This document shows, one piece after another, positions 14,222 through 56,141 of a stretch of DNA of 64,000 bases. The DNA lies in contig JARLHE010000040.1 of NCBI GenBank assembly GCA_031292385.1, positions 34,471 to 98,470 on the forward strand, in the 5' to 3' direction. Origin of the DNA: Oligoflexia bacterium (GTDB lineage: Bacteria > Bdellovibrionota > UBA1018). Numbering within the stretch: position 1 is the first letter of the stretch; every line of letters begins with the position of its first letter. The notes under the pieces were generated by a model that saw nothing but the letters and a program-made list of their open reading frames with translations, was not told the origin of the DNA and ran no database searches. A program made the translations under genes and the position numbers.

Positions 14222-14929
14222 TTAAATTCTCGCGACAAACGAGACAAAACTGAAATGAGTTGTCGTCGACGTGGAATGAGCGTCTGGTCCTAGCAATGTG
14301 GAAGTCCTGACGGTACGTGGCCGCCAATTTCCAGAGCCGATCTGGCTCAGTTGATATCCGAGGCCCTGCTCCCATGACGTGAAGGACGGCAAGGCGCGCA
14401 TATTCTCTCCGGAGGTTGGCAAGACTTCATGAAATGAGGATTCACGAATCAAAGAGCTCTCGGCGCGCTGAGAAATCACTTGCGCGAATGCCGATCCAAT
14501 TCCCTGGCTGGCGGCGGTCGATTGAAAATAATGGCGGGTAAAATCCTTTCCACCCACATGTGAGCCCGAACAAAGTAAATCGGCTTTGCGTAAGCGCAGT
14601 CCTTCGTTGAAGTCAGTGAAAGCGCCATCATTCATGATGCCAATAATTACGGAACCCGGATGCTTGCCGACATGTGACTCGAGCTGATCCAGTCTATTGA
14701 ATCTCAATTCTCGTATTTTTGTCGCGGCGCTGGCGGCCAGTCGAATGCCGTTATCAAATTCAGCGTGAGCTTCTCCCAATCGTAAAATTTGTAGCGAAGA
14801 AATTGATCGAGGCAAAAGCATGGCCTCCGCCTGGTTTAAAAGGCCACTCAACGGATTCAGCGCGATGGTTGCGCCGAGCGCTGTGGATCGTGAAAGAAAT
14901 TCCCTGCGGGAAAGATGAAACGAGGTCAT
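14222..14929 (-). CDS. Tat-signal protein, PchX-like accessory subunit of flavocytochrome
   Basis: MTSFHLSRREFLSRSTALGATIA is a twin-arginine signal. It sits between the cytochrome c and flavoprotein genes, and its start overlaps the cytochrome c stop (ATGA). Confidence 0.5.
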   Translation of the reverse strand: MTSFHLSRREFLSRSTALGATIALNPLSGLLNQAEAMLLPRSISSLQILRLGEAHAEFDNGIRLAASAATKIRELRFNRLDQLESHVGKHPGSVIIGIMNDGAFTDFNEGLRLRKADLLCSGSHVGGKDFTRHYFQSTAASQGIGSAFAQVISQRAESSLIRESSFHEVLPTSGENMRALPSFTSWEQGLGYQLSQIGSGNWRPRTVRTSTLLGPDAHSTSTTTHFSFVSFVARI

Positions 14930-15324
14930 CACTTTCCTCCTGGTTGTGCTTTCTCAACCCAATCGGCTAAGCCATCGAGCTCCTGATCGCTGATTTCAGA
15001 AGGAAAAAATGGCGGCATGGTTTGAATGCCTCTGCGAGCAAACGCTTTTAGGGCTGCGGCCGGATAGTGCCTTCCCAGAATCGCGGGCCCCACACTTGGA
15101 TCGCCCGCATTGGGCTCGTGGCACTGGGAGCATAGGACTTGATAGATCTGCGCCGAATTCTTCCATTGACCGGCTCCATAACTTTTCCAATTTACTCTTT
15201 CGGAACCCTTTGTTGCACCGAGCTCCGGAGTAAAAGGAAAAATCGACATCTCGTTCTTGGATGAATCACCGCTGCTCGGTAGTGCGGCTAGAAAAAGTCC
15301 GATCGATAATAAATATATTCTCAC
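14929..15324 (-). CDS. class I c-type cytochrome (PchC-like)
   Basis: One CSQCH heme motif plus a signal peptide. A GTG at 15324 lies 7 nt after GGGAGG and is preferred over the track ATG at 15363. Confidence 0.65.
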   Translation of the reverse strand: MRIYLLSIGLFLAALPSSGDSSKNEMSIFPFTPELGATKGSERVNWKSYGAGQWKNSAQIYQVLCSQCHEPNAGDPSVGPAILGRHYPAAALKAFARRGIQTMPPFFPSEISDQELDGLADWVEKAQPGGK

Positions 15325-15471
15325 AGGTGCCCTCCCTGAAGCCCATTGTGGAGACGCCGTCATAGGTCGGGAAAGCTACTTGGGGCAACGTGATATGCGG
15401 AATATATTTTAGTGCTCATGTTGCTTTGCGTGAAATTGCGCGGGTCTGCTCCTTGCAGTCCGTTCGAGTTT

Positions 15472-44417: not shown

Positions 44418-46769
44418 GTGAGAAACCGCCTCTGGCTCTGGCAGCTGCCGATTATCCTGCTTTGCGTTTTTGCGTATGCGGTTTGCGATCTGGGCGTTCG
44501 CGGCAAGCTTGAAAATCGGCTCCTGCGAGAACGCCTATTCCCCGGCTTGAGGTCGGTTTCAACGGTCTTTTCGGACGCGAAATTCCGAATGCGGGGGCCG
44601 GCGCCGATCAAGAATAAGATCGTGATCGTGGATGTCGACGGGGCGTCTTTGGATGCTTTGGGTCGCTGGCCTTGGCATCGCGATGTCGTCGCGGCCGTGA
44701 TCGATACGATTTTTTCGTACGGGGCCAAGGTGGTCGGCCTCGATATGGTGTTTTCGGAGCCGGACCGGCGCATTCCGGAAGAGTTGGCGAACGCGTTGCC
44801 GCCTGAAATGTTTCGAGACTTAAAGCGGAAACTCGAAACCGATTCGAAACTGACCGAAGTCATTCGTAAATACAGCGATCGCCTCGTTCTAGGATGGGCC
44901 AGCGATGGGCATTGCCAGCCTCTTTATCAGGATCCCAAAGATTGCCCGGTGAATGATCCGCAAGTGATCTCGGGCATTCAGCCGGGATTCGAGAAGTTCG
45001 CGGTTTCCCAGCAGGAGCCTCTGACTTTCGATAATCGGAAAACGCCGTTGCTGTCGTTGCTCGCTCTCCTGGCCAATCTTCCCGAGTATAGCGACGCCGC
45101 CCAGCATGCGGGCTCGTTCGATATCGTTCCCGATTCCGACGGTGTGGTGAGGCGGACGAATCTCGTTTTCGCCGCTTCTTCTCAAAGCGGCATGGCGAAA
45201 GCCTATCCGTCGCTCCCCCTGGAAATGGCCAGGGTCGGGCTCGGCGACCGGCTTGATGTTCATTTCGATTCAGGCAACCGCATCGAATCGCTGCGGTTCG
45301 CGAAATCGGGAGAAGCCCTGCCGGTTTCTCCCGTGGGCGCTTTGGAGATCAATTTTCGCGGCCCCGCCCAAAGCTTTCAGTATGTCAGCGTCGCTGAGCT
45401 TCTCGCCGAAGGAGAAAAACTGGAAAAAGACGGAACCCGGCGGCCCGCCGCGGTCTCGAAGGTCGAGTTCTTGCGGAATGCGTATGTTCTCTTCGGGGTG
45501 TCCGCTCTGGGGGTGTACGATATGCGGGCGTTTCCCTTCGATTCGAACGTCCCGGGGGTGGAAGGGCATGCGAATATTTTGGACAATATCCTGGCTCAGG
45601 ATTTCCTCACCAGCGGCAAAGGGCTTTTGAGCTCGGATTTGCTCTATTTGATCATGATTTTAGGCGGCGTCTTGTTCGCGATTTTCGTGCAGCGGTTGGA
45701 CGCGATCCCCGCGCTCGTTTTCACTTTGCTGGTCTTCGGAGGGCTCGGGACGTTCGATACGCAGTTTCTTTTCAGGCGCAATATCGATTGGAACACGAGC
45801 TTCTTTTTTCTCGAGCTCAGCTTCATTTTCATGTCCACGATCGCCGCCAAATACGTCATCGAAGAGCGGAACAAAAGGTTCGTGCGCGGCGCTTTCGCGA
45901 AGTACGTGGCTCCGGCGGTGGTTGATTCGATCCTGAAGGATCCGGCGAAGCTGACCGTGGGCGGCGAAAAGCGCGAGCTGACGATTCTGTTTTCGGACAT
46001 CCGCGGCTTTACCACCTTTTCGGAGCGCCTCGACGCCAGGGCCTTGGCCTCGTTCCTGAATGATTACCTGTCGATTCAAACCAAGATCATCTTCGGTCAC
46101 GAAGGCACGCTCGATAAATACATCGGCGATGCGATCATGGCCTTCTGGGGCGCGCCGCTCGATCAGGCGAAGCAAGCTTCGAATGCGTGCAAAGCGGCGA
46201 TCGCGATGATGCAGGCCCTGGCAGCTAACCGCAAACGATTCAAGGAACAATACGGCGTCGACGTGGATGTCGGGATCGGTCTTAATAGCGGCATGGTGAA
46301 CGTGGGCAACATGGGTTCGAACGAGAACTTTTCGTACACGGTGATCGGTGACCACGTCAATCTCGCATCGAGGCTCGAGGGGCTGACCAAGTATTACGGC
46401 GCCGGGATCGTGACCTCGCGCTTTACGCTCGATATGATCGAGAAGGAGGGCGAGCCGCTTCCTAGGTTTCGCGTGTTGGATTCGGTCAAGGTCAAAGGCC
46501 GGAAAAGCGCGGTGGAGCTGGTGCAGATTCTGGACCGGGATTACCCCGCCGACGGCCTCGCGGCGTTCGAAGAAGCGAGAAAACTCTATTTGTCCCGGGA
46601 CTGGAATGCCGCTGAAGCGGCCTTTAGGAAAGCAAATGAGTTGATTTCTTCGGCGCTCGGACTGGTTGTCGATGGGCCGTCTCAAATGTACATCGACCGA
46701 TTCAGTGAATTGAGGTCGGCGCCTCCTTCGTTCGATTGGGATGGCTCCTGGGAAATGCACAGTAAGTAA
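44418..46769 (+). CDS. CHASE2 sensor - class III adenylate/guanylate cyclase
   Basis: CHASE2 (IVIVDVDGASLDALGRWPWHRD...GLDMVFSEPD), three TM helices, and an active CHD (ILFSDIRGFT, KYIGDAIMAFWGAP, VNLASRLEGLTK). Confidence 0.8.
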   Translation: MRNRLWLWQLPIILLCVFAYAVCDLGVRGKLENRLLRERLFPGLRSVSTVFSDAKFRMRGPAPIKNKIVIVDVDGASLDALGRWPWHRDVVAAVIDTIFSYGAKVVGLDMVFSEPDRRIPEELANALPPEMFRDLKRKLETDSKLTEVIRKYSDRLVLGWASDGHCQPLYQDPKDCPVNDPQVISGIQPGFEKFAVSQQEPLTFDNRKTPLLSLLALLANLPEYSDAAQHAGSFDIVPDSDGVVRRTNLVFAASSQSGMAKAYPSLPLEMARVGLGDRLDVHFDSGNRIESLRFAKSGEALPVSPVGALEINFRGPAQSFQYVSVAELLAEGEKLEKDGTRRPAAVSKVEFLRNAYVLFGVSALGVYDMRAFPFDSNVPGVEGHANILDNILAQDFLTSGKGLLSSDLLYLIMILGGVLFAIFVQRLDAIPALVFTLLVFGGLGTFDTQFLFRRNIDWNTSFFFLELSFIFMSTIAAKYVIEERNKRFVRGAFAKYVAPAVVDSILKDPAKLTVGGEKRELTILFSDIRGFTTFSERLDARALASFLNDYLSIQTKIIFGHEGTLDKYIGDAIMAFWGAPLDQAKQASNACKAAIAMMQALAANRKRFKEQYGVDVDVGIGLNSGMVNVGNMGSNENFSYTVIGDHVNLASRLEGLTKYYGAGIVTSRFTLDMIEKEGEPLPRFRVLDSVKVKGRKSAVELVQILDRDYPADGLAAFEEARKLYLSRDWNAAEAAFRKANELISSALGLVVDGPSQMYIDRFSELRSAPPSFDWDGSWEMHSK

Positions 46770-46844
46770 TAATCAAGAATAGGGATTTGAAGGATTTGCA
46801 ATTATTCGCTGAAAAGGCGATTCTTGAAATTAGGAACCAGAAAA

Positions 46845-47612
46845 ATGCCTTCACCAACGTCTCCAGTTGAAAAGCCAGTCAGGACCGCTCTCGTTGTTGA
46901 AGATGATGCTTCTCTGCGCGAGTTGTTGATTACCATGCTGGAAACCCGCGGTTTTCGCGTCTTGGGCGCGGAGGACGGCGAGGAGGCATTGAAGATTCTC
47001 TCGCGGGATTTCACCGCCGTGAACGTCGTCATCACCGATTTCGTCATGCCCAAGATGTACGGGGACGAGCTTTTGCGGGAGATCAAGCAGCGGGCGCCCG
47101 ATTTTCCGTCTGTTTTGGTGACAGGCGAAGTTCCTGACTCGATCATTTTGGGTCTGCTGGATCAGCGCCGCACGGTGGTTGTAATTAAACCATTTGAGTG
47201 GAAGATCTTACTCGAGGCGATCGAGCGGGTTTTGTCGGACGACGTCATAGCGAGCGTCTCCACCCGCGTCGCCGTTCGACTCCCTTGCCGGATCGACGGG
47301 GGATCGCAGAAGGGCGTGAAGAGCGCGACCATTCGCGACATCTCTTTCACGGGCGCGTTGCTCGGGATCGAGCGCCTGGGTGGGGCCAATCCGGATTTTC
47401 AAGTGTCGAGCGATTTCAAGATGAGGCTTCAGGGATTCGAGAATTTCGCGATTCAAGCCCGGGTGAGGCGGTTGGTGCCCTCGAGTGACGGCGAGAGTAT
47501 CGAGGCGATCGGAGTGAGTTTCGAGCCCGATCGCTCTGATTCCGAGGCGAACCTTTTCCTGAAAAAACTCGTCTTGGGAAAAATGAAAAACATGGGCGTC
47601 GGAATCGCCTAG
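46845..47612 (+). CDS. response regulator: REC + PilZ domain
   Basis: REC (ALVVEDD...VVITDFVMP...K), then a PilZ-like C-terminus (RVAVRLPCRI...DISFTGALL). ATG 46845 sits 8 nt after AGGAA. Confidence 0.7.
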   Translation: MPSPTSPVEKPVRTALVVEDDASLRELLITMLETRGFRVLGAEDGEEALKILSRDFTAVNVVITDFVMPKMYGDELLREIKQRAPDFPSVLVTGEVPDSIILGLLDQRRTVVVIKPFEWKILLEAIERVLSDDVIASVSTRVAVRLPCRIDGGSQKGVKSATIRDISFTGALLGIERLGGANPDFQVSSDFKMRLQGFENFAIQARVRRLVPSSDGESIEAIGVSFEPDRSDSEANLFLKKLVLGKMKNMGVGIA

Positions 47613-50444: not shown

Positions 50445-50533
50445 GCCGGGGTGGCGAAATTGGTAGACGCACAGGACTTAAAATCCTGAGTTCCGCAAGG
50501 GGCGTACCGGTTCGATTCCGGTCCTCGGCACCA
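50445..50533 (+). tRNA. tRNA-Leu (anticodon TAA), CCA encoded
   Basis: GCCGGGG-TG-GCGAAATTGGTAGACGC-ACAGGA CTTAAAA TCCTG-long variable arm-T arm-CCTCGGC-A-CCA. Type II tRNA with anticodon UAA. Confidence 0.85.
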
Positions 50534-51018
50534 AATTCAAAGGTAGGCCGTACCTTTTGGTTGAGACCTGCGTCATTCTCCATTCCGCGGGAATCGTCGG
50601 CTCGTCGGATGCGCGCAGGAGCTGGAAAAGGCATACCCCCAATTGGTGCAGATCGGGTCAGACGGGCTGAAGTCGGTGAACTATTTGCATTTGCTGGCGC
50701 CTCTCGTTGGTGAGTTCAATACGGTTGCCGCGAAGATTGCCGCTCTGTCGATGAAATCCGAAGAGTAAGACCGAACGCTGGCAAATCTCTCCCTCGAGAG
50801 CGACAAGAACCGCATTGAGACTCTCGAAAGCAAGATTACGCGAATTCAGAGTTACCTCTGCAACAAAGACGTGAAATCCCAGCTTTGTCAGTGATAGAAA
50901 AAGAAAATTATAAACAATATCGAGTGGTTGTAACGTTTTTAATCAAAAATATGGGTTCGTATTTGGATCAATATATTTCTATTGTCAGACTAAAATAATC
51001 AGGTATCATTAAGTTATT

Positions 51019-51052
51019 GGGGTCGTCATTTCTGTTTAGGGGGCATACGTTT
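51019..51052 (+). promoter_or_regulatory. conserved 5' leader shared by the two paralogous lipoprotein genes (copy 1)
   Basis: gggtcgtcatttctgtttagggggcatacgtttATG versus gggtcgtcatttcttggttttagggggcgtgcgatATG at 52819. Confidence 0.35.
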
Positions 51053-52723
51053 ATGGGGGAATCCATTACTCGCTTTTTCAAGGGCACCGGTCCCATCGCG
51101 GCATTGGCTTTAGTGCTAGCGACGGGGTGTAGCCAGAAATATTCCGTTGCTTTGACGGGTAATCCCAACAATTTGGCCGCAGCCAATGGAGCGAATGGGA
51201 GTGGAAACTCGACCGGCTCGACCGGTGGGACTACGGATCCGCTTCCGTCTTCTTCGCCGGGATCTACCGGCGGTACAGTTGATCCGCTTCCTCCTGCCTC
51301 CCCATCTCCATCCCCGACTCCTTCGCCTTCGCCCACGGCCTCAGCCTCGCCTGCGCCAGGAGGAACCTCGGTTACGATTCAGCGTCTGGAGCCGGCTCTT
51401 GCTGTTCGTGGCCCCGGATGCGTGGCTTGTCACGCGAACGTGCAAGCGGGCGTAGTTACCGATTTCGGTTACGGGAATTCCTGGTTCGTCGAAAAGGAAA
51501 CCACGAACTACACGTACACCTCGGCCAACAGTCTCTTCACGAGCTCTTATTACACTCCTTATACGTTGCAAACTCTTCAGAGCGTCACCGGGCAGTTCAT
51601 GGTTCCGGCGGGAAATATTCCTGCGGCGCTTTCGACCGCGATGGACAGCTCTGCGGCTTCGCCGATGACAATTGCCAATATGATGCAAGATACTAATGTC
51701 GTTGTGAGCTCGACCCCGTTGTCCTGGATGCAGTATCTCGGCATTACATCCTCATCTCCGGCACACTACGCCCTTGATACCAATGTCAAACCGACTCCGG
51801 TCAATAGTGTGACTCCTCCTCCGGTGTCGGAAGAGCAGACCATCTATATCGGGGCTCCGAGTTCGAGTTATATCTTGAATCTCGCTCAAAACCCTGGAGC
51901 TGCGGCTCCCTTTGTTCAACAGGCCAGAGGGACGACTGGGGCGGTCAGTGGGCTTGGGGTCGTGCATGGCGCGGGGGGCAGTCAGTTCGTGATGAATACG
52001 GGCACCGTTCAGTGTTCGGGCCTCGATGTCGTCATCAACGGCACGCTGCTCTTGAATAATCTCAATATCCTGGCCGAGAAGGGCGGTTGCCGTCTCTATG
52101 TGACGGGCTCGGTCTTCATCGAGGGGCCGATTAATTATCTGAACTCAGGGTCGAGTGTCGATCCGACGGATAATCTCCAGATCACGAGCGCGACCTCGAT
52201 CATCATGGGGGTTGGCTTGAGCGGTAATTCCTATCTGTCGAACGGGGTGCTCGACGGCCCCACCACGGGTTCTTACGTGAATAATCCGTTGCATCTTCGA
52301 CTCCTCGACGATGCCCGCTACCCGCTCTTCCGTATCGCTCCGACGAATGCTGCCTATTACACGTGGGCAAGCGGAGTCTATAACGAAGGGGCGAATATCG
52401 GCGCGTCTTACCTTGTCGATGCCTCGGTTACCTCGGGAGCGGCTTCGGTCAGTACGTCGGGACAGTCCCGGACGTCGATCAGCTACCAGCATCTGCTTTT
52501 GAATGCGCCAGCCGTGCATAGCCGCTACCTCGGCTCTTTCACGGGGGTGATCATTTCGGAAGTCGCGCTGATGTCGCTGGGTCAGTTCAACTTCAACTAC
52601 GACATGGTGTTCAGCAACCTCAGCGTGCCGATTTTGCCTTCGCTCAACGCGGACGTTCTCTGCGTGACGAGCCTGAGTTTGACCGGCGGTTGCAATCCGG
52701 TGATGGCGCCTACGTCGAACTAG
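51053..52723 (+). CDS. large secreted lipoprotein, paralog A, single CxxCH motif
   Basis: Lipobox LATGC, a G/S/T/P-rich linker with TGGTxDPLP repeats, RGPGCVACHANVQ, and conserved Cys throughout. About 65-70% identical to the next gene. Confidence 0.55.
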   Translation: MGESITRFFKGTGPIAALALVLATGCSQKYSVALTGNPNNLAAANGANGSGNSTGSTGGTTDPLPSSSPGSTGGTVDPLPPASPSPSPTPSPSPTASASPAPGGTSVTIQRLEPALAVRGPGCVACHANVQAGVVTDFGYGNSWFVEKETTNYTYTSANSLFTSSYYTPYTLQTLQSVTGQFMVPAGNIPAALSTAMDSSAASPMTIANMMQDTNVVVSSTPLSWMQYLGITSSSPAHYALDTNVKPTPVNSVTPPPVSEEQTIYIGAPSSSYILNLAQNPGAAAPFVQQARGTTGAVSGLGVVHGAGGSQFVMNTGTVQCSGLDVVINGTLLLNNLNILAEKGGCRLYVTGSVFIEGPINYLNSGSSVDPTDNLQITSATSIIMGVGLSGNSYLSNGVLDGPTTGSYVNNPLHLRLLDDARYPLFRIAPTNAAYYTWASGVYNEGANIGASYLVDASVTSGAASVSTSGQSRTSISYQHLLLNAPAVHSRYLGSFTGVIISEVALMSLGQFNFNYDMVFSNLSVPILPSLNADVLCVTSLSLTGGCNPVMAPTSN

Positions 52724-52818
52724 GAGTTCGGGTTGGCGGTGTTTGAATGACGGCTTTCGCATGAAGGTCGTGCTGGCCCCACCGGATCAAAACGGTGGGG
52801 CCAGCCTCTCGATAGAGC

Positions 52819-52854
52819 AGGGTCGTCATTTCTTGGTTTTAGGGGGCGTGCGAT
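52819..52854 (+). promoter_or_regulatory. conserved 5' leader (copy 2)
   Basis: See the feature at 51019. Confidence 0.35.
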
Positions 52855-54504
52855 ATGGGAAAATCCATTTCTCGGGCATTTAAGGGGGCGGGTCCCATCG
52901 CGGCTTTGGCTTTTTTCGTGGCTGCCGGATGCAGCAGTCAGAAATACGGCGTCTCCGTGACGGGCCCGAACGATTTGGCTTCCGCCAACGGCGCTAACGG
53001 TTCCGGATCGAACGCGAATGGCAGTAATCCGACGGGATCCACCGGGGGGGGCTCCGACCCTCTTCCGTCATCGGGATCAGCCGGCGGAACCACCGATCCT
53101 CTTCCTTCCGGCGGATCGACGGGGGGAACCTCGGATCCGATCCCCTCGGGGGCCTCCGGAGGGAGCACCGATCCGATCGGCGGCGGCACGACGATCAGCG
53201 TTCAGCATATTCAGCCCGCGATCGCGGTTCGCGGCATGGGCTGCCTCAACTGCCATGCGGATGTGCAAGCCAATATCGTGACCGATTTCGGCTATGGAAA
53301 TCCTTGGTATTTGGAGCAGGAAAATTCGGGCTACACGTCGGGCACGAATATGTTCACTATGGCCTACTATACGCCGTTCAGCTGGCAATCGACGCAGCAG
53401 GTATTGGGGCAAGTCATGGTTCCGGCCGAGAACATTCCCTCGGCGCTTTCGACTGCTTTGGGCTCGTCCTCGACTTTGTCTCTTGGCGGCATGATGACGT
53501 CCGCTAAGACTCCGGACTTCGCGTCGGTATGGTTCTCGTATTTTAACTTGGGCGCGGCTCCGACCTATCTTCCTTTTGATACTTACGTCACTCCGCAAGC
53601 CGTGAGCAGCGGGACGCCTCTTTCTCCCGTGGTCACCGAGCAGACCGTGTACATCGGGGCGCCGAGCTCGAGTCAGGTTCTTGCCATCGCGCCGAACTCC
53701 GGCCTTACGGGTCCGTGGGTTCAAGTAGCCAAGGGAGAAACCGGTGCCGGAAGCGGTATTTCCGGGCTCGCGATCACCAGCGGCGCGGGCTCCGGGTTCG
53801 TGACGAATTCGGGGCCGATTCACTGCTCCGGATTGGACGTGGTGATCAATGGCACGCTGCTTTTGAACAGCGCGCACGTTTACGCGGAGAAGGGCGGCTG
53901 CCGTCTTTATGTGACCGGCTCGGTTTTCATCGAAGGGCCAATCACGTATCTGAACTCGGGATCGACCGCCGATCCGACGGATAATCTGCAGATCACGAGC
54001 GCGACCTCGGTCATCATGGGCGTGGGCTTGACCGGCGCTTCATATGTTCCTAGCGGATTGGAGCCGGGAAACAACCCGCTGCATACCCGGCTGATCGATG
54101 ATGCGCGTAGCCCTTATTTCCGTATCGCCACAACTCCGGCTGCCTATACAACCTGGGCAAACGGGGTTCTTGCCGAAGCGAACAATATTGGCCCGACGCT
54201 TCTCGTGGATGCCTCCAATACGTCGGGCGCGTCCTCCACGGCGTACTCGTCGACCGGCCAGAGCCGCGCGTCGATCAACTATCAGCACCTGCTTCTGAAC
54301 GCTCCGGTCGTGCACAGTCGTTATTTGGGGTCTTTCTCGGGCGTGATTGTTTCCGAAATCGCGCTGATGTCGCTGGGACAATTCAATTTCCACTACGACA
54401 GCGTATTCAGTAATGCCTCGGTCTCGGTCCTGCCGGCGTTGACGGGGGATGTGCTCTGCGTGATCTCGAGCTCGAGCGCATCGACCTGTAATCCGGTGAT
54501 GTAA
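52855..54504 (+). CDS. large secreted lipoprotein, paralog B, single CxxCH motif
   Basis: Lipobox VAAGC, a G/S-rich linker, RGMGCLNCHADVQ, and the same conserved blocks (CSGLDVVINGTLLLN, GGCRLYVTGSVFIEGPI, CNPVM at the C-terminus). Confidence 0.55.
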   Translation: MGKSISRAFKGAGPIAALAFFVAAGCSSQKYGVSVTGPNDLASANGANGSGSNANGSNPTGSTGGGSDPLPSSGSAGGTTDPLPSGGSTGGTSDPIPSGASGGSTDPIGGGTTISVQHIQPAIAVRGMGCLNCHADVQANIVTDFGYGNPWYLEQENSGYTSGTNMFTMAYYTPFSWQSTQQVLGQVMVPAENIPSALSTALGSSSTLSLGGMMTSAKTPDFASVWFSYFNLGAAPTYLPFDTYVTPQAVSSGTPLSPVVTEQTVYIGAPSSSQVLAIAPNSGLTGPWVQVAKGETGAGSGISGLAITSGAGSGFVTNSGPIHCSGLDVVINGTLLLNSAHVYAEKGGCRLYVTGSVFIEGPITYLNSGSTADPTDNLQITSATSVIMGVGLTGASYVPSGLEPGNNPLHTRLIDDARSPYFRIATTPAAYTTWANGVLAEANNIGPTLLVDASNTSGASSTAYSSTGQSRASINYQHLLLNAPVVHSRYLGSFSGVIVSEIALMSLGQFNFHYDSVFSNASVSVLPALTGDVLCVISSSSASTCNPVM

Positions 54505-55598: not shown

Positions 55599-56141
55599 AT
55601 GCTGGACAAGATTAAAAAATATTCAGATCGATGGGCAGTCGTGTTTCTTGTGTTCGGATGTGTGGCTTGCGGAGGCGCGCAAGGCCAATCCCAGAGCTTG
55701 GGCGCGTTCGGAACCCAGGTGAATCAGTTCGTCGCGGACGCCTCCTCGCATGGCGTGAGCGTCGATACCTCGAACCTTGTGGTTCAGGTGGGGGATCTGA
55801 GCAGCGCCTCGACGACTACGGTGGTGAACGGCGTCACCGAAACCACGACCAACGTGGATGTCGGGCAATGCGACTTCACGGAGGCCGGGCCGACCGTGAC
55901 CATTTCGGCGACGGCGATCCAAAGTTTCGGCCCGGAATCCCTTGAAGCGCTGGTTTATCATGAGCTGGGTCATTGTCTCTTGAAGCTTGAGCATAATTCG
56001 AACCTGAGTGCGGACGGGACGCCGGCAAGCCTTATGTATCCGACCGGCGTCGACGGCCAGACTTACCTGAAGAACCGTGCCGCGTATCTTGACGAGCTTT
56101 TCTCGCAGCCTCAAAATACGGCTTTCGTTGGCGGAGGGTAG
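55599..56141 (+). CDS. small metzincin-like zinc metalloprotease lipoprotein
   Basis: Lipobox FGCVACGG, HELGHCLLKLEHN, and the Met-turn LMYP. Paralogous in architecture to 39201-40088. Confidence 0.55.
   Translation: MLDKIKKYSDRWAVVFLVFGCVACGGAQGQSQSLGAFGTQVNQFVADASSHGVSVDTSNLVVQVGDLSSASTTTVVNGVTETTTNVDVGQCDFTEAGPTVTISATAIQSFGPESLEALVYHELGHCLLKLEHNSNLSADGTPASLMYPTGVDGQTYLKNRAAYLDELFSQPQNTAFVGGG

What the first reader, a model, noticed from the sequence alone, without database searches (positions are those of the whole stretch)
51019..54504. Tandem paralogous ~550-aa lipoproteins with a single strictly conserved CxxCH and duplicated 5' leaders: candidate novel secreted heme protein family
The two adjacent genes are about 65-70% identical and were duplicated together with ~35 nt of upstream leader, including the SD-like AGGGGGC. 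Each has a lipobox, a low-complexity G/S/T/P linker, and then a globular region. In that region the only heme-type motif (RGPGCVACHANVQ / RGMGCLNCHADVQ) is conserved despite divergence elsewhere, as are five other Cys. Downstream blocks (CSGLDVVINGTLLLN, GGCRLYVTGSVFIEGPI) suggest a beta-rich or beta-helical body. I cannot match the family. The genes are co-located with an SGNH hydrolase and a mini-metzincin, so this may be a secreted redox and hydrolytic toolkit.
Basis: partly seen in the sequence, partly recalled or inferred. Interest (0 to 1): 0.6.

Follow-up and report, generated by a model that had tools for sequence, protein, structure and literature searches.

The report
Lipid-anchored CxxCH beta-solenoid protein family
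Two neighbouring genes of a predatory-bacteria relative (Oligoflexia) encode membrane-anchored proteins of a large, unnamed family whose head combines a new-looking domain carrying an always-conserved haem-attachment motif with a ComZ/ice-binding-protein-like beta-solenoid; they are probably a new kind of single-haem surface cytochrome, but haem binding has not been tested.

The parts
50982..51009 (+). sigma-70-like promoter match (TTGTCA-16-TATCAT) ending about 10 nt before the conserved leader of gene A
   Evidence: 10 of 12 matches; a consensus match only
51020..51049 (+). conserved 5' leader of gene A, including the SD-like AGGGGG
51053..52723 (+). gene A, a 556-aa lipoprotein paralog
51053..51130 (+). 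gene A signal peptide and lipobox (LATGC; Cys26 at 51128-51130)
   Evidence: pattern as in PROSITE PS51257 (my knowledge)
51131..51370 (+). gene A low-complexity S/P/G/T tether (80 aa)
51371..51934 (+). gene A N-terminal CxxCH domain (approximate limits, by alignment to gene B)
51419..51433 (+). gene A CVACH motif (residues 123-127)
51935..52720 (+). gene A beta-solenoid domain (approximate limits)
52775..52802 (+). perfect 10-bp inverted repeat (GGCCCCACCG-N8-CGGTGGGGCC) between the genes, with no T-tract after it
   Evidence: read; not flagged by the terminator scan
52820..52852 (+). conserved 5' leader of gene B
52855..54504 (+). gene B, a 549-aa lipoprotein paralog (identical to NCBI MAG Oligoflexia P4M08_11140)
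52855..52932 (+). gene B signal peptide and lipobox (VAAGC; Cys26 at 52930-52932)
52933..53193 (+). gene B low-complexity G/S/T/P tether (87 aa)
53194..53739 (+). gene B N-terminal CxxCH domain. It folds on its own (pLDDT 90, pTM 0.84) and has no PDB structural neighbour.
53242..53256 (+). gene B CLNCH motif (residues 130-134)
53740..54501 (+). gene B triangular beta-solenoid with a flanking helix, ComZ- and IBP-like. It holds the invariant C324 and C349 and the conserved polar residues.

Best explanation
Each gene encodes a Sec-exported, lipid-anchored protein. After signal-peptidase II cleavage it is acylated at Cys26. An 80-87 aa flexible G/S/T/P tether holds a two-domain head away from the membrane. 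The head consists of (i) a ~165-residue domain of previously unseen fold carrying the family's single invariant CxxCH and (ii) a triangular beta-solenoid like those of ComZ and ice-binding proteins. I infer that the cytochrome-c maturation system attaches one haem covalently to Cys130 and Cys133 (gene B numbering), with His134 as proximal ligand. The product would then be a tethered mono-haem c-type protein, probably on the outer membrane or cell surface. The conserved polar residues of the solenoid would form a ligand-binding or haem-facing site; these are D328, R350, Y352, N377, Q379, R412, R418, D452, R489, Y490, E501 and D515. The tandem pair is an old duplication, and both copies are kept by purifying selection. 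What is shown: the anatomy, the fold, motif invariance, family size and distribution, and the lack of conserved gene partners. What is inferred: haem attachment, surface location and any redox or catalytic role.
Confidence: 0.55

Rival explanations
1. This is a non-haem protein. The CxxC is a structural or redox-active disulfide, or together with His134 and the invariant Asp144 it forms a metal site that stabilises the cap of a beta-solenoid adhesin or binding protein.
For: The N-terminal domain resembles no cytochrome and no Pfam cytochrome model hits it. There is no invariant sixth ligand. C, C, H and D are all invariant within 15 residues. The other Cys behave as disulfide pairs. Ig-like stalks and several paralogs per genome are typical of adhesins. 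Beta-solenoids of the ComZ and TpsA types are binding modules (PMC6561018).
Against: An invariant His directly after CxxC in 293 of 293 sequences is not needed for a disulfide. Adjacent Cys-His rarely chelate one metal ion, and Cys-ligated metal sites are unusual in Sec-exported, disulfide-rich proteins (my knowledge). The xx residues are not of the oxidoreductase type. The fold is not thioredoxin-like. A Sec-exported CxxCH in an organism that makes cytochromes c is a potential substrate of the maturation system (my knowledge).
Confidence: 0.27
2. This is an ice-binding or antifreeze protein of the DUF3494 type, or a general surface adhesin using that fold. Under this reading the CxxCH is incidental to function.
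Against: No sequence match to PF11999 was found for any of 77 members. The family also occurs in cultured Bdellovibrio isolates and in other MAGs. The conserved residues are charged or polar (D, R, Y, Q, N, E) rather than a flat Thr/Ser/Ala ice face. ComZ shares the fold but binds DNA (PMC6561018). CxxCH invariance argues that the motif is central.
Confidence: 0.05
3. One reading: the two proteins act with the downstream SGNH hydrolase and small HExxH protein as one secreted redox and hydrolytic toolkit.
For: The genes share a strand and have short gaps (72 nt from gene B to the SGNH gene), with no terminator-like site called between them. All four have export signals. One related locus (L069) has an HExxH homolog about 1.3 kb downstream.
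Against: The SGNH gene is in 0 of 73 related loci and the HExxH gene in 1 of 73. No neighbour cluster is shared beyond close strains. The closest orthologs sit in unrelated contexts.
Confidence: 0.05
4. This is a ComZ-like pilus-tip DNA receptor.
Against: There is no pilin-like N-terminal domain or prepilin signal; the protein has a lipobox instead. No pilin genes lie nearby. The similarity is limited to the solenoid, at 13% identity.
Confidence: 0.02

Closest known systems
ComZ beta-solenoid domain, Thermus thermophilus (PDB 6QVI; PMC6561018)
   Different: ComZ inserts the solenoid into a pilin fold, sits at a pilus tip and binds DNA. It has no CxxCH domain and no lipid anchor. Identity is 13% and there is no detectable sequence relationship.
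DUF3494 / IBP-1 ice-binding proteins (e.g. 3WP9, 6BG8, 7BWX, 5UYT)
   Different: There is no PF11999 match. This family is about twice the size and has an added N-terminal CxxCH domain and a conserved charged patch instead of an ice-binding face.
PgcA-type 'haem-tethered redox strings' of Geobacter (PMC10570954)
   Same: A lipoprotein signal, low-complexity Pro/Thr-type tethers, mono-haem CxxCH units and variable axial ligation.
   Different: PgcA has three small helical cytochrome domains and no solenoid. There is no sequence or fold similarity, and haem is demonstrated for PgcA but not here.
Outer-surface lipoprotein cytochromes (MtrC/OmcA class; my knowledge)
   Same: Lipid-anchored c-type haem proteins displayed outside the cytoplasmic membrane.
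   Different: Those are decahaem electron conduits encoded in porin-cytochrome operons. This family has a single motif, a different fold and no conserved partners.
Pfam PF23981 (DUF7305)
   Same: Sub-threshold partial matches in 8 of 77 members (best E 5.6e-4; the two inspected scored about 16 bits against a 27-bit cut-off). The two matches I inspected (P0033, P0043) lie on the GCRLYVTGSVFI solenoid coils.
   Different: The matches are below the curated threshold and cover only about 55 residues. The window proteins do not hit it at all, and DUF7305 is itself uncharacterised (no papers found).

Membership tests
c-type cytochrome | CxxCH haem-attachment motif | tested here: met
   One motif per protein. 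It is invariant in 216 of 216 aligned sequences and present in all 293 sequences that reach the site.
c-type cytochrome | Export as an unfolded chain (Sec signal) to the compartment where haem is attached | tested here: met
   Lipobox signal peptides in genes A and B. Lipobox variants or plain signal peptides occur across the family, and there is no twin-arginine motif.
c-type cytochrome | Host possesses a cytochrome-c maturation system | tested here: inconclusive
   No ccm or ccs gene lies in the 64-kb window. A canonical class I cytochrome c gene does (14929-15363, PF13442, E 8e-15), which implies such a system.
c-type cytochrome | Covalently bound haem demonstrated | not testable with these tools
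   This needs haem staining, a pyridine haemochrome or mass spectrometry.
c-type cytochrome | Match to a known cytochrome-c sequence family or fold | tested here: not met
c-type cytochrome | Conserved distal axial ligand (His or Met) | tested here: not met
   No invariant second His or Met. Y248 (Y 196, H 18, M 1) is the only ligand-like column. Penta-coordinate or Tyr-ligated c-haems exist (my knowledge), so this does not exclude haem.
Bacterial lipoprotein | Signal peptide ending in a lipobox with invariant Cys | tested here: met
   LATG-C and VAAG-C at residue 26 fit the PS51257 pattern. In the family, 65 are canonical, 114 have 'QNC' and most of the rest have variants. No dedicated predictor was run.
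DUF3494 / IBP-1 ice-binding family (PF11999) | Sequence match to the family model | tested here: not met
   No hit at E<=1 for the window proteins or any of 77 members.
DUF3494 / IBP-1 ice-binding family (PF11999) | Triangular beta-solenoid with an accompanying helix | tested here: met
DUF3494 / IBP-1 ice-binding family (PF11999) | Ice-binding activity | not testable with these tools
   Requires an assay.
ComZ-like competence pilin | Pilin-like N-terminal domain and prepilin-type signal | tested here: not met
PgcA-like haem-tethered redox strings | Several cytochrome domains joined by low-complexity tethers | tested here: not met
   There is only one CxxCH unit per protein. The tether links anchor to head, not haem domain to haem domain.

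The most novel reading that the evidence does not exclude
The family is a new structural class of haem-c protein: a surface-tethered, catalytic or ligand-binding mono-haem enzyme. The haem would lie between a novel N-terminal domain and a ComZ/IBP-like solenoid. It would have a His134-Asp144 proximal pair and no fixed His or Met distal ligand (open, or Tyr/His at core position 248). Conserved Arg, Asp, Gln and Glu residues would line a substrate site. Bdellovibrionota would use it for extracellular oxidative chemistry, for example during prey attack or oxidant handling.
Probability: 0.15. Interest if true: 0.75.

Novelty: new variant of a known kind. Interest (0 to 1): 0.52.

Why it matters
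If haem is attached, this is a large and completely unannotated family of extracytoplasmic cytochromes: 428 clusters at 50% identity, often with several loci per MAG. Its fold is new, and it is concentrated in predatory Bdellovibrionota, whose surface biology is poorly understood. It would add a haem-c scaffold, a CxxCH cap on a beta-solenoid, to the known repertoire. Motif-plus-annotation screens may miss it, because such proteins are named 'hypothetical'. Cultured carriers exist (B. bacteriovorus WP_374029207.1; Bdellovibrio spp. 22V, HCB288 and GT3), so the question is directly testable. If haem is not attached, the family is still a conserved surface-protein family with an unusual invariant Cys-x-x-Cys-His...Asp site of unknown role.

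Tried and rejected
- **Sequence searches:** Pfam, NCBIfam and PDB searches with single sequences and with a 77-sequence profile gave nothing significant. Foldseek against the PDB gave only weak hits (E 0.07). The afdb50 library was not available.
- **Conserved neighbourhood:** tblastn of 12 window neighbours against 73 loci, plus all-against-all clustering of 964 ORFs, found no conserved partner. The contigs of the three closest orthologs were unrelated in context.
- **Tandem duplication elsewhere:** none of the 73 loci shows a second copy.
- **RNA structure in the shared leader:** not better than shuffles (z 0.45 and 0.11).
- **tRNA-Leu-linked island:** no att-like direct repeat was found.
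- **Solenoid-only profile search for relatives lacking the CxxCH domain:** among the 120 hits listed, it returned only family members.
- **DUF7305:** sub-threshold, partial and uncharacterised.
- **Literature:** searches for a described Bdellovibrio CxxCH or solenoid cytochrome found nothing relevant.
- **Coevolution:** the analysis confirmed solenoid stacking. It gave only weak hints that the CxxCH segment (core 19-34) contacts coils 376-409, too weak to place a ligand.
- **dN/dS on the CxxCH region:** uninformative, because synonymous sites are saturated.

Full report
**Observation.** The window holds two adjacent + strand genes. Gene A is 51053-52723 (556 aa from the ATG; the ORF opens at a TTG at 51017) and gene B is 52855-54504 (549 aa).

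- The two proteins are 60% identical over 567 aligned columns and 62% identical in the 445-aa core.
- DNA-level repeats confirm a tandem duplication.
- The leader is shared. GGGTCGTCATTTCT is 14/14 identical at 51020 and 52820, and TTTAGGGGGCRTRCG is 13/15 identical. The 14-mer occurs nowhere else in the window even with two mismatches.
- Each protein has a signal peptide ending in a lipobox (LATG-C, VAAG-C; Cys26), an 80-87 aa S/P/G/T-rich linker, one CxxCH (A 51419-51433, B 53242-53256) and seven Cys at aligned positions.

**Age and selection.** Nei-Gojobori dN/dS is 0.20 with synonymous sites saturated (pS 0.64, dS about 1.5). Gene B is as close to a protein from another metagenome (P0002, 62%) as it is to gene A. 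The duplication is therefore old, and both copies are under purifying selection.

The roughly 30-nt leader is much better conserved than synonymous sites. It shows no significant RNA fold, and it is absent upstream of the closest orthologs. A sigma-70-like promoter match ends about 10 nt before it in gene A, so it is probably a constrained 5' UTR. Its role is unexplained.

**Family.** Pfam, NCBIfam and PDB sequence searches find nothing.

- Gene B is identical to a hypothetical protein of an Oligoflexia MAG.
- A profile search of 1.84 billion representatives finds 428 clusters with E<=1e-3 and 308 with E<=1e-30.
- A scan of species-representative genomes returns 73 loci. Almost all are Bdellovibrionota (Bdellovibrio, Pseudobdellovibrionaceae, Bacteriovoracia, Oligoflexia). 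Five loci are from Acidobacteriota MAGs and one is from a Thermodesulfobacteriota SAG. Several MAGs carry two or three loci.
- Sources name the proteins 'hypothetical' or 'Ig-like domain-containing'. Cultured carriers include B. bacteriovorus and Bdellovibrio spp. 22V, HCB288 and GT3.

**The motif.** Of the 229 proteins from the full-length searches, 215 have CxxCH. The 14 without it begin at or after the motif; several start 'MCHA...'.

A search with a solenoid-only profile is unbiased with respect to the N-terminal domain. It added 86 proteins, of which 78 have the motif. The other eight are N-terminally short. Two of these (P0241, P0262) could not be resolved because their DNA is not retrievable.

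In a 216-sequence alignment, C26, C29, H30, D40, I163, C220, C245 and G285 are 100% invariant (core numbering; add 104 for gene B). Homologs from the Acidobacteriota and Thermodesulfobacteriota loci keep 'PALAVR..C..CHA....TDFGYG'.

**Structure.** AlphaFold2 on a 77-sequence alignment gives pLDDT 94.5 and pTM 0.94.

**Architecture and location.** About 85% of full-length members have a canonical lipobox (65) or the lineage-typical 'QNC' variant (114). Most of the rest have close variants. A roughly 430-aa branch, of the type seen in the Acidobacteriota loci, has plain signal peptides instead.

The spacer between the lipid-anchor Cys and CxxCH ranges from 29 to 695 aa. In long members it consists of He_PIG, Big_9, cadherin-like, fn3 or PKD modules. 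This is the layout of a head displayed on a stalk.

Core Cys counts are even (4, 6 or 8) and extra Cys arise as co-occurring pairs, as in disulfide-bonded extracytoplasmic proteins. Ser at +2 after the lipid-anchor Cys would favour outer-membrane sorting by the E. coli rule. That is an inference from my knowledge and was not tested.

**Context.** None of the window's neighbours accompanies the family elsewhere. This covers MTHFR, a TrmB-like methyltransferase, an alpha/beta hydrolase, the SGNH hydrolase, the small HExxH protein, a GATase and TyrRS. The SGNH gene is in 0 of 73 loci and the HExxH gene in 1 of 73 (L069). No gene cluster recurs beyond closely related strains, and the three closest orthologs sit in unrelated contexts. 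The toolkit or operon idea is not supported, and no redox partner is indicated.

**Interpretation.** The most economical explanation for an invariant CxxCH in Sec-exported, disulfide-rich proteins is covalent haem attachment. The same window encodes a canonical cytochrome c (14929-15363, PF13442, E 8e-15), so the organism matures c-type cytochromes.

The xx residues (aliphatic, then variable) fit haem-c sites better than oxidoreductase CxxC motifs. PgcA is a precedent for lipoprotein mono-haem units on low-complexity tethers with variable axial ligation.

Three points count against this reading. No cytochrome fold or family matches. No His or Met is invariant as a sixth ligand; H383 is 59% and M284 is 60%, and only Y248 (Y 196, H 18, M 1) has a ligand-like pattern. 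Nothing has been tested biochemically. I put haem-c attachment at about 0.55 and a non-haem disulfide or metal cap at about 0.27. The ice-binding, toolkit and pilus-receptor readings are minor.

The invariant Asp ten residues after the His, together with the many near-invariant Arg, Asp, Tyr, Gln and Glu residues on successive solenoid coils, would be compatible with a penta-coordinate catalytic haem and a substrate site. That is speculation (about 0.15).

**Novelty and verdict.** This is an unnamed but large family. It combines a known kind of fold (a ComZ/IBP-like solenoid) and a known kind of motif (CxxCH in a lipoprotein) in a combination not described before, with an N-terminal domain that has no solved relative. 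I rate it a new variant of a known kind, of moderate interest. A simple haem stain in available isolates would test it directly.

Noticed in passing
window 14929-15363 (-): A 144-aa exported protein with CSQCH matches Cytochrome_CBB3 (PF13442, E 8e-15). It is a canonical class I cytochrome c, showing that the organism matures c-type cytochromes.
   Followed up: partly
window 51020-51049 and 52820-52852: The 5' leader of the two paralogs is nearly identical (14/14 and 13/15 nt) although synonymous sites are saturated. It is absent upstream of the closest orthologs and has no significant RNA fold. It may be a regulator or sRNA site, or the result of short-tract gene conversion.
   Followed up: partly
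homologs P0008-P0229 (N-termini): 114 of 211 full-length family members have '[F/L]QNC', with Asn at -1, where a lipobox is expected. This looks like a lineage-typical variant in Bdellovibrionota.
   Followed up: no
window 50445-50533, then 50534-51019: tRNA-Leu(TAA) is followed by about 500 nt without a convincing gene, ending in an AT-rich stretch just before gene A. No tRNA-derived direct repeat that would indicate an integrated island was found downstream.
   Followed up: partly
window 52775-52802: A perfect 10-bp GC-rich inverted repeat with an 8-nt loop lies between genes A and B. No T-tract follows it, so the terminator scan did not call it.
   Followed up: no
window 44418-46769 and 46824-47612: A CHASE2-adenylate/guanylate cyclase gene is followed by a response-regulator-PilZ gene. 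This looks like a nucleotide second-messenger signalling pair.
   Followed up: no
window 55599-56141; L069 10622-10888: A small lipoprotein-like HExxH protein (HELGHCLLKLEH; PF18894, sub-threshold E 0.002) has a 37%-identical homolog about 1.3 kb downstream of the family member in one other locus only.
   Followed up: partly
loci L022, L026, L032, L036, L046; proteins P0234-P0319: A roughly 430-aa branch has a plain signal peptide instead of a lipobox and almost no spacer before the CxxCH domain. It is the type found in the Acidobacteriota and Thermodesulfobacteriota loci.
   Followed up: partly
P0096 residues 156 and 408: One family member carries a second CxxCH (CIDCH) inside the solenoid region. 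One further member among the 86 later sequences also has two motifs.
   Followed up: no
P0241 and P0262 (JGI sample 3300075153): Two family proteins match only from the VYIGAP block onward and lack the CxxCH part. In P0241 the upstream gene abuts the start. The DNA could not be fetched, so truncation and a genuine variant cannot be told apart.
   Followed up: partly
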